Source of the DNA: Escherichia coli
Lineage (GTDB): Bacteria; Pseudomonadota; Gammaproteobacteria; Enterobacterales; Enterobacteriaceae
Length of the DNA: 64,000 nt
Direction: 5' to 3' (one strand)
Assembly (NCBI RefSeq): GCF_045037415.1
Contig: NZ_CP173438.1
Of the stretch, positions 48,999-50,081 are shown piece after piece (position 1 is the stretch's first letter; every line of letters starts with the position of its first letter). The notes beneath the pieces are model-generated. The model searched no databases. It was not told where the DNA came from and was given only the letters and a program-made list of their open reading frames with translations. Both the position numbers and the translations under genes were made by a program.

Positions 48999-50081
48999 TT
49001 AGCAAATTGCTATTTCCGTTTCTGCATCAAAGAAATGACATTTAGTCATATCAAAATGAATAGTGATATTTTCTCCTGCATGATAATCATTTAACGCACC
49101 AGCACGGACCACTAACTCGTGCCCCCCAACCGTGGTGTAGAGCATAAATTCCGCACCGGTTAATTCCGCCACGCTAATTTTGGCGGAAATGTTATTTTCT
49201 TCTTGCGCATCCGGATGAATATCCTCCGGGCGTATTCCCATCACAATGGGTTTATGTAAACTTTCCTGCGTTTTCAGAACCGCTAATTTCTCTTCGGGAA
49301 TGGTTAATTTAAGTGTTTCCGTAACGAATTTATCGCCATCGATCGTGCCGCGAATAAAATTCATTGCTGGTGACCCAATAAATCCGGCAACAAACATATT
49401 CGCCGGTTGGTTATAGACCGTTTTCGGCGCACCGACCTGCTGAACAATCCCATCCTTCATAATGACAATCCGCGTCGCCATGGTCATCGCTTCGGTCTGA
49501 TCGTGGGTCACGTAGATCATGGTGGTGTTCAGTTTCTGATGCAGCTTGCTGATCTCTGCGCGCATTTGCACACGCAGCTTGGCATCCAGGTTAGAGAGCG
49601 GCTCATCCATTAAAAACACGCCCGCTTCGCGCACAATCGCCCGCCCAAGCGCCACTCGCTGACGTTGCCCGCCGGAAAGCGCGCCCGGCTTGCGTTTCAG
49701 GTACTCACGCAGGCCGAGGATTTGCGCCGCCCAGTTAACCCGCTCATCAATCATCTCTTTGGCGATTTTTTGTATCTTCAGGCCAAACGCCATGTTGTCG
49801 TAGACCGTCATATGCGGATACAGCGCGTAGTTCTGGAACACCATCGCGATATTGCGTGCTTTGGCTGGAACGTCATTCATTCGTTTGCCGTCGATCAACA
49901 GCTCACCGCCGCTGATCTCCTCAAGCCCGGCAATCATACGCAGGGTGGTCGATTTACCGCAGCCCGACGGACCGACAAACACGATGAACTCTTTATCGGC
50001 AATCTCCAGGCTGAAGTCCTTCACCACATGCACCTGGTTATCGTAGATCTTTTGAATATGTTGTAACGAAAGCTGTGCCAT
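48999..50081 (-). CDS. ycjV: ABC transporter ATP-binding protein YcjV (MalK-like), apparently intact at 360 aa
   Basis: Walker A GPSGCGKST, ABC signature LSGGQRQR, Walker B FLMDEPLSNLD. Confidence 0.85.
   Translation of the reverse strand: MAQLSLQHIQKIYDNQVHVVKDFSLEIADKEFIVFVGPSGCGKSTTLRMIAGLEEISGGELLIDGKRMNDVPAKARNIAMVFQNYALYPHMTVYDNMAFGLKIQKIAKEMIDERVNWAAQILGLREYLKRKPGALSGGQRQRVALGRAIVREAGVFLMDEPLSNLDAKLRVQMRAEISKLHQKLNTTMIYVTHDQTEAMTMATRIVIMKDGIVQQVGAPKTVYNQPANMFVAGFIGSPAMNFIRGTIDGDKFVTETLKLTIPEEKLAVLKTQESLHKPIVMGIRPEDIHPDAQEENNISAKISVAELTGAEFMLYTTVGGHELVVRAGALNDYHAGENITIHFDMTKCHFFDAETEIAIC

What the first reader, a model, noticed from the sequence alone, without database searches (positions are those of the whole stretch)
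48999..50081. ycjV appears intact (360 aa with all ABC ATPase motifs)
As I recall, K-12 ycjV is annotated as a pseudogene. Here Walker A, ABC signature and Walker B motifs and a full-length MalK-like C-terminal domain are present. The ycjMNOPQRSTUV transporter would therefore have its own ATPase in this strain.
Basis: partly seen in the sequence, partly recalled or inferred. Interest (0 to 1): 0.3.

Follow-up and report, generated by a model that had tools for sequence, protein, structure and literature searches.

The report
Intact ycjV sugar-transporter ATPase gene
This E. coli strain carries the normal, intact version of the ycjV sugar-transporter ATPase gene; it is the laboratory strain K-12 that is unusual, having lost one G from a run of six, a defect already recorded in public annotation.

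Summary
Window 48999-50081 on the minus strand is a 360-aa ORF with every ABC ATPase motif and a complete MalK/MsmX-type C-terminal domain. It lies between pgmB (ycjU) and ompG in a fully intact ycjMNOPQRST-pgmB-ycjV-ompG cluster.

RefSeq marks K-12 ycjV as a "frameshifted" pseudogene. I located the lesion: K-12 has G5 where this window has G6 (gene nt 955-960, window 49122-49127, codons 319-320). The K-12 product ends as ...VGGTS* at 322 aa and lacks the last 40 residues.

The intact form is the species norm. The G6 allele is in 4617 of about 5003 complete E. coli genomes that carry the locus. The G5 allele is in 371, mostly K-12 laboratory derivatives in the sample listed. K-12 ycjV with one G restored is 100% identical to the intact gene of ATCC 8739, E. 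coli C and others, so the lesion is recent. dN/dS between this allele and K-12 is 0.04.

The K-12 pseudogene is in public annotation and is used by strain engineers as a neutral integration site. Full-length E. coli YcjV has been reported to retain ATPase activity. The finding is true, ordinary and already known. The only mildly new point is that ycjV is inactivated repeatedly, by the same G loss on two other allelic backgrounds and by IS1 insertions in at least 11 genomes.

The parts
48999..50081 (-). ycjV CDS, 360 aa plus stop; CUT1-type (MalK/UgpC/MsmX-like) ABC importer ATPase
   Evidence: ORF; Pfam; NCBIfam; nucleotide-identical to SK1144 WP_000068009.1
49122..49127 (-). G6 homopolymer (C6 on the + strand), codons G319-G320; the site where K-12 has G5, causing its frameshift
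   Evidence: Pairwise alignment with K-12; allele counts
48999..49121 (-). Codons 321-360 plus stop: the C-terminal 40 residues (end of the TOBE_2/regulatory domain, including the conserved HFFD...ETE segment) that K-12 loses
   Evidence: K-12 translation ends ...VGGTS* at 322 aa; this segment aligns with MsmX 6YIR to its end
49950..49973 (-). Walker A, GPSGCGKS (residues 37-44)
49665..49679 (-). ABC signature LSGGQ (residues 135-139)
49602..49619 (-). Walker B, VFLMDE (residues 155-160), followed by D-loop SNLD
49500..49508 (-). H-loop, THD (residues 192-194)
49029..49376 (-). C-terminal regulatory domain (OB_MalK 236-288 plus TOBE_2 282-351)
50088..50092 (-). Shine-Dalgarno AAGGA, 6 nt upstream of the ycjV ATG
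   Evidence: read from the sequence
57700..58992 (-). ycjN, substrate-binding protein, 430 aa, 98.1% identical to K-12
56798..57679 (-). ycjO, permease, 293 aa, EAA loop at residues 195-214
55969..56811 (-). ycjP, permease, 280 aa, EAA loop at residues 174-193
59006..60685 (-). ycjM, glucosylglycerate phosphorylase, first gene of the cluster
50095..55938 (-). ycjQ, ycjR, ycjS, ycjT (kojibiose phosphorylase) and pgmB/ycjU, all full-length
48049..48954 (-). ompG, monomeric porin, 301 aa, starting 44 nt after the ycjV stop
47000..47998 (+). ycjW, LacI-family regulator, convergent with ompG

Best explanation
Window 48999-50081 (minus strand) is the ancestral, functional allele of ycjV. It encodes the nucleotide-binding subunit of a binding-protein-dependent sugar importer of the MalK/UgpC/MsmX type. 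A YcjV dimer would dock on the EAA loops of the permeases YcjO and YcjP and use ATP hydrolysis to import the glycoside delivered by the lipoprotein YcjN. OmpG would provide outer-membrane entry, and the YcjM, YcjQ, YcjR, YcjS, YcjT and PgmB enzymes would process the substrate. E. coli K-12 differs by a recent single-G deletion in a G6 run at codons 319-320. That deletion cuts off the last 40 residues of the C-terminal regulatory domain and is why K-12 annotation calls ycjV a pseudogene. Shown here: the intact ORF, motifs and domains; the position and nature of the K-12 lesion; the allele frequencies; purifying selection; and intact partner genes. Taken from the literature: full-length E. coli YcjV is reported to retain ATPase activity. 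Inferred: that YcjV energises YcjNOP, and that the K-12 truncation abolishes function.
For: Intact 360-aa ORF. All ABC motifs are present. Pfam ABC_tran, OB_MalK and TOBE_2 all match, and the NCBIfam UgpC-type subfamily score is above its cut-off. The protein aligns end to end with B. subtilis MsmX 6YIR (E=6e-147, residues 1-359) and with MalK 1Q12. K-12 is annotated 'frameshifted', and the single indel is G6 to G5 at gene nt 955-960. The G6 allele is in 4617 genomes and G5 in 371; most of the 60 G5 records listed are K-12 laboratory derivatives. Repaired K-12 ycjV is 100% identical over 1083 nt to the intact genes of ATCC 8739, E. coli C, M217 and others. The window differs from repaired K-12 by 40 synonymous and 6 non-synonymous changes, dN/dS = 0.038. 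All other ycj genes are full-length with no stops. YcjO and YcjP carry EAA loops, and the SBP, permease and OmpG families are confirmed. Literature: MG1655 ycjV is listed as a pseudogene (PMC4786092) and used as a pseudogene integration site (PMC10380740). YcjV WP_000057985.1 is reported to retain ATPase activity (PMC7658222). ycjV is listed among colonisation-associated genes missing from K-12 (PMC8009128).
Against: Nothing contradicts the sequence-level claims. No experiment links YcjV to YcjNOP, and the transported substrate is unknown. E. coli YcjV did not replace MsmX for B. subtilis importers (PMC7658222), so it is not a freely interchangeable ATPase. Whether the 322-aa K-12 product is truly inactive has not been tested. 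From general knowledge, ompG is reported to be silent in K-12 under laboratory conditions, so the cluster may be poorly expressed anyway.
Confidence: 0.9

Rival explanations
1. The K-12 frameshift is functionally immaterial. The 322-aa K-12 protein keeps the whole ATPase domain and most of the regulatory domain and still works, so this strain and K-12 do not differ in phenotype.
For: The lesion is far 3' at codon 319 of 360. All catalytic motifs (residues 37-194) lie upstream of it.
Against: The lost segment is the final part of the TOBE_2 fold (Pfam 282-351). It is conserved as far as B. subtilis MsmX, including HFFD..ETE, and the gene as a whole is under strong purifying selection (dN/dS 0.038). 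From general knowledge of MalK structures, the C-terminal domains hold the dimer together, so removing terminal strands should destabilise the fold.
Confidence: 0.12
2. The G6 tract is a contingency (phase-variable) switch, and E. coli populations toggle ycjV on and off by slipped-strand mispairing.
For: The same G6 to G5 loss occurs on three different allelic backgrounds: K-12, 95-3192 (15 substitutions from K-12) and OkiPb01703 (5 substitutions).
Against: Six G is short for an effective contingency tract. Only about 4 of 60 sampled G5 genomes have genome sizes unlike K-12. 4617 genomes keep G6. Homopolymer sequencing error in those few assemblies cannot be excluded. I did not search for a G7 allele.
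Confidence: 0.05
3. The intact reading frame here is an assembly or sequencing artefact, with an extra G called in a homopolymer.
For: Homopolymer length errors are common in long-read assemblies.
Against: The G6 form is shared by 4617 independent complete genomes. It restores a frame that aligns to the end of MsmX and MalK. Three genomes are 100% identical over the 1301-bp query, window 48900-50200.
Confidence: 0.01

Closest known systems
E. coli K-12 ycjV (b1318, annotated pseudogene)
   Same: Same locus between pgmB and ompG. With one G restored, 354 of 360 residues are identical (S24N, E60D, I103M, M110V, A232S, C360R); 46 nucleotide substitutions.
   Different: K-12 has G5 instead of G6 at gene nt 955-960, giving a 322-aa product ending in TS* without residues 321-360. 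RefSeq flags it 'frameshifted'.
Intact YcjV of non-K-12 E. coli (for example WP_000068009.1 of SK1144; WP_000057985.1 studied in PMC7658222)
   Same: The window gene is nucleotide-identical to the SK1144 gene. The intact 360-aa form is the common state in E. coli. The paper reports that E. coli YcjV retains ATPase activity.
   Different: None for WP_000068009.1. I could not retrieve WP_000057985.1, so its exact identity to this allele was not measured.
Bacillus subtilis MsmX (PDB 6YIR), a multitask oligosaccharide-importer ATPase
   Same: Best solved relative, E=6.4e-147, aligned over residues 1-359 with the same domain order. PMC7658222 gives 64% identity.
   Different: MsmX is an orphan ATPase that serves several importers. 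YcjV is encoded inside one operon, did not complement an msmX null mutant, and lacks the charged residues (D77, R104, E110, K154) proposed as the multitask signature.
E. coli MalK (PDB 1Q12) and UgpC
   Same: Same CUT1-type architecture: ABC domain plus OB/TOBE regulatory domain. The NCBIfam UgpC-type subfamily score is above its cut-off.
   Different: The MalK equivalog model scores 427 bits against a 568-bit cut-off, so this is not a MalK orthologue. It sits in a different operon and no regulatory partners are known.

Membership tests
ABC transporter ATPase (nucleotide-binding domain) | Walker A, Q-loop, LSGGQ signature, Walker B with catalytic Glu, D-loop and H-loop, in the canonical order | tested here: met
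   GPSGCGKS 37-44, Q83, LSGGQ 135-139, VFLMDE 155-160, SNLD 163-166, THD 192-194; Pfam ABC_tran E=5.7e-32
CUT1-type sugar importer ATPase (MalK/UgpC/MsmX group) | C-terminal regulatory domain of about 120 aa with an OB/TOBE fold after the ABC domain | tested here: met
   OB_MalK 236-288 and TOBE_2 282-351; full-length alignment to MsmX, AlgS and MalK structures
CUT1-type sugar importer ATPase (MalK/UgpC/MsmX group) | Score above a curated family cut-off | tested here: met
   NF008653 (UgpC-type subfamily): 486.5 bits against a 432-bit cut-off
MalK orthologue (maltose importer ATPase) | Score above the NF008233 equivalog cut-off | tested here: not met
   427.2 bits against a 568-bit cut-off; located in the ycj operon, not the mal operon
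ycjV orthologue | Conserved position between pgmB (ycjU) and ompG in the ycjM-ompG cluster, with near-identity to K-12 ycjV | tested here: met
   Identical gene order in the window, SK1144 and K-12; 95.7% nucleotide and 98.3% amino-acid identity to repaired K-12 ycjV
ycjV orthologue | ATP hydrolysis by the protein | not testable with these tools
   Reported for E. coli YcjV WP_000057985.1 in PMC7658222; not measured for this allele
Functional YcjNOP-V importer | Intact substrate-binding protein and two permeases with EAA coupling loops in the same operon | tested here: met
   SBP_bac_1 and two BPD_transp_1 proteins; EAA loops in YcjO 195-214 and YcjP 174-193; all full-length
Functional YcjNOP-V importer | Physical and functional coupling of YcjV to YcjOP, and a defined substrate | not testable with these tools
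   No experimental report found in the papers read

The most novel reading that the evidence does not exclude
ycjV is a recurrent target of inactivation in E. coli. The same G6 to G5 slip is seen on at least three allelic backgrounds, and IS1 insertions interrupt the gene in at least 11 further genomes. This could mean that losing the importer's ATPase is advantageous in some niches (antagonistic pleiotropy), with the G6 run acting as a weak mutational hot spot. The K-12 lesion would then be one example of a general trend rather than a laboratory accident.
Probability: 0.12. Interest if true: 0.25.

Novelty: already known. Interest (0 to 1): 0.08.

Why it matters
It matters little beyond bookkeeping. 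Conclusions about the ycj sugar-utilisation cluster drawn from K-12 come from a strain whose transporter lacks an intact ATPase gene. These include the lack of a growth phenotype and the uncertain YcjN substrate. Substrate-hunting experiments would be better done in a strain with the G6 allele, such as this one, ATCC 8739 or E. coli C, or in K-12 with one G restored. The exact lesion reported here (restore one G at gene nt 955-960) makes that repair straightforward.

Tried and rejected
(1) Sequencing artefact in the window: rejected, because 4617 genomes share G6. (2) Other lesions in K-12 ycjV, such as a second frameshift, a stop codon or decay after the frameshift: none found. There is one indel only, the repaired K-12 gene is 100% identical to intact genes in other strains, and the post-lesion codons differ from the window at only 2 sites. 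(3) Broken partner genes that would make the intact ATPase irrelevant: rejected, all are full-length. (4) MalK orthology: rejected by the NCBIfam cut-off. (5) Exact count of non-K-12 genomes carrying G5: not obtainable, because only 60 of the 371 records are listed. Genome size in the spread sample suggests a few per cent. (6) A literature search for 'ymjB', which I recall as the former name of the K-12 C-terminal fragment ORF, gave nothing useful. (7) Structure prediction and the large protein-database searches were not run; the answer did not depend on them.

Full report
**Observation**

The ORF listing gives an ATG-to-TAA ORF of 360 aa at exactly window 48999-50081, on the minus strand.

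The translation carries every ABC ATPase motif in the canonical order:
- Walker A GPSGCGKS, residues 37-44
- Q-loop Q83
- signature LSGGQ, residues 135-139
- Walker B VFLMDE, residues 155-160
- D-loop SNLD, residues 163-166
- H-loop THD, residues 192-194

Pfam finds ABC_tran (21-162, E=5.7e-32), OB_MalK (236-288) and TOBE_2 (282-351). NCBIfam places it in the UgpC-type subfamily NF008653 at 486.5 bits against a 432-bit cut-off. The MalK equivalog model stays below its cut-off (427 against 568 bits). An AAGGA Shine-Dalgarno sequence lies 6 nt upstream of the ATG, and ompG starts 44 nt after the stop.

**The K-12 comparison**

A megablast of window 48900-50200 against 5426 complete E. coli genomes finds the locus in 5003 of them. 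K-12 derivatives span 1300 rather than 1301 bases.

In the BW25113 record the CDS is 1082 nt and is flagged pseudogene, 'frameshifted'. In strain SK1144, whose gene is nucleotide-identical to the window, it is a normal 1083-nt CDS, WP_000068009.1.

Global alignment of the two genes shows 46 substitutions and a single indel. K-12 has GGGGG where the window has GGGGGG, at gene nt 955-960. This is window 49122-49127 (a C6 run on the plus strand), codons G319-G320. K-12 therefore reads ...YTTVGGTS* and stops at 322 aa. The native residues 321-360 survive in another reading frame.

Its stated refutation, K-12 identical in length and sequence, is not met.

**Which state is the norm?**

I built 48- and 49-nt queries in which every 28-nt megablast seed must span the whole G-run.
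- The G5 allele is present in 371 genomes. Most of the 60 listed are K-12 laboratory derivatives such as MG1655, W3110, BW2952, MC4100, C600 and XL1-Blue.
- The G6 allele is present in 4617 genomes.
- Together they account for 4988 of the roughly 5003 genomes that carry the locus.

K-12 ycjV with one G restored is 100% identical over all 1083 nt to the intact gene of ATCC 8739, E. coli C, M217 and many others. The K-12 lesion is therefore a single, recent event on an otherwise unaltered allele.

Between the window and repaired K-12 there are 40 synonymous and 6 non-synonymous differences, giving dN/dS = 0.038. The gene is under strong purifying selection in the species.

**Context**

Every gene of the cluster is present in the window at full K-12 length with no internal stop. 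[quoted passage not shown]
- YcjN is an SBP_bac_1 protein.
- YcjO and YcjP are BPD_transp_1 permeases.
- Both permeases carry the EAA coupling loop on which an ABC ATPase docks.

The statement that the transporter has its own ATPase in this strain is correct at the gene level. Functional coupling is inferred from operon membership only.

**What the K-12 lesion removes**

The closest solved relative is B. subtilis MsmX (6YIR, E=6e-147). It aligns from residue 1 to 359, including the conserved HFFD..ETE segment that lies after the lesion. MalK (1Q12) aligns over residues 1-352. The truncation cuts the TOBE_2 fold (282-351) roughly in half.

From general knowledge of MalK, the C-terminal domains form the constitutive dimer contact. 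Loss of function is therefore likely, but it has not been tested.

**Literature**

- MG1655 ycjV is listed as a pseudogene in mutation tables (PMC4786092).
- It is used explicitly as a 'pseudogene ycjV locus' for neutral chromosomal integration (PMC10380740), and as an integration locus alongside ygaY, yghX, ylbE and ilvG in PMC11731478.
- Full-length E. coli YcjV (WP_000057985.1) was expressed in B. subtilis and accumulated there. The paper reports that it retains ATPase activity but cannot replace MsmX (PMC7658222).
- An intact ycjV homologue is counted among colonisation-associated genes missing from K-12 (PMC8009128).
- Papers on YcjN treat YcjV as the NBD of YcjNOP; their passages that mention ycjV never use the word pseudogene.

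Both the intact gene and the K-12 defect are therefore already known. The papers I read do not give the exact base, but anyone can read it from the public records.

**Side result**

The same G loss is annotated as 'frameshifted' in genomes whose ycjV allele differs from K-12. Strain 95-3192 has 15 substitutions in the gene and 141 in 5 kb. OkiPb01703 has 5 in the gene and 67 in 5 kb. This is either recurrent slippage or homopolymer sequencing error.

PJ-T13 is identical to K-12 over 5 kb.

In addition, at least 11 genomes carry an IS1 element inside ycjV (H21; H121-H130). ycjV is thus inactivated sporadically by more than one route, against a background of strong conservation.

**Verdict**

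The feature is an ordinary, ancestral, already-annotated gene, and the K-12 pseudogene is a known strain peculiarity. Novelty: already known. Interest is low, at 0.08.

Noticed in passing
L003:1569-2650 (strain 95-3192), L004:1569-2650 (strain OkiPb01703): The same G6 to G5 frameshift as in K-12 occurs on two other ycjV allelic backgrounds, 15 and 5 substitutions away from K-12. This is either recurrent slippage at the homopolymer or homopolymer sequencing error.
   Followed up: partly
hits H21 and H121-H130, corresponding to window 48999-50081: At least 11 complete E. coli genomes have an IS1 element inserted in ycjV, splitting it into an 'ABC transporter ATP-binding protein' fragment and a 'TOBE domain-containing protein' fragment. 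Insertion sites were not compared, so the number of independent events is unknown.
   Followed up: no
window 39434-40072 (+): An intact 212-aa NAD(P)H-binding SDR/NmrA-like oxidoreductase (Pfam NAD_binding_10, E=3e-54) lies between ycjY and mpaA. K-12 keeps only a 138-bp remnant annotated as 'incomplete' at this position. This is a second case in the window where K-12 has a pseudogene and this strain has the intact gene.
   Followed up: partly
window 47999-48048 (ompG-ycjW intergenic): The intergenic region is 50 bp here and 110 bp in K-12. K-12 has about 60 extra bp containing a second REP-like palindromic element (GCCGGATAAG...GCATCGCATCTGGC).
   Followed up: partly
window 59006-60685 (-), ycjM: YcjM is only 94.1% identical in protein to K-12, whereas the neighbouring genes are 97-100% identical. 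This may be a recombination patch or faster evolution of the phosphorylase.
   Followed up: no
window 44389-45450 (-), ycjF; L006:17751-18140: ycjF is full-length in the window (353 aa, 100% identical to K-12) but is only a 390-bp DUF697 fragment in SK1144. SK1144 is otherwise identical to the window at ycjV, so the window does not come from SK1144 itself.
   Followed up: no
window 48900-50200: 423 of the 5426 complete E. coli genomes gave no megablast match to the ycjV region at all, so a minority of strains may lack the locus. This window's allele (99% identity or more) is shared by only 566 genomes; most are 95-99% identical.
   Followed up: no
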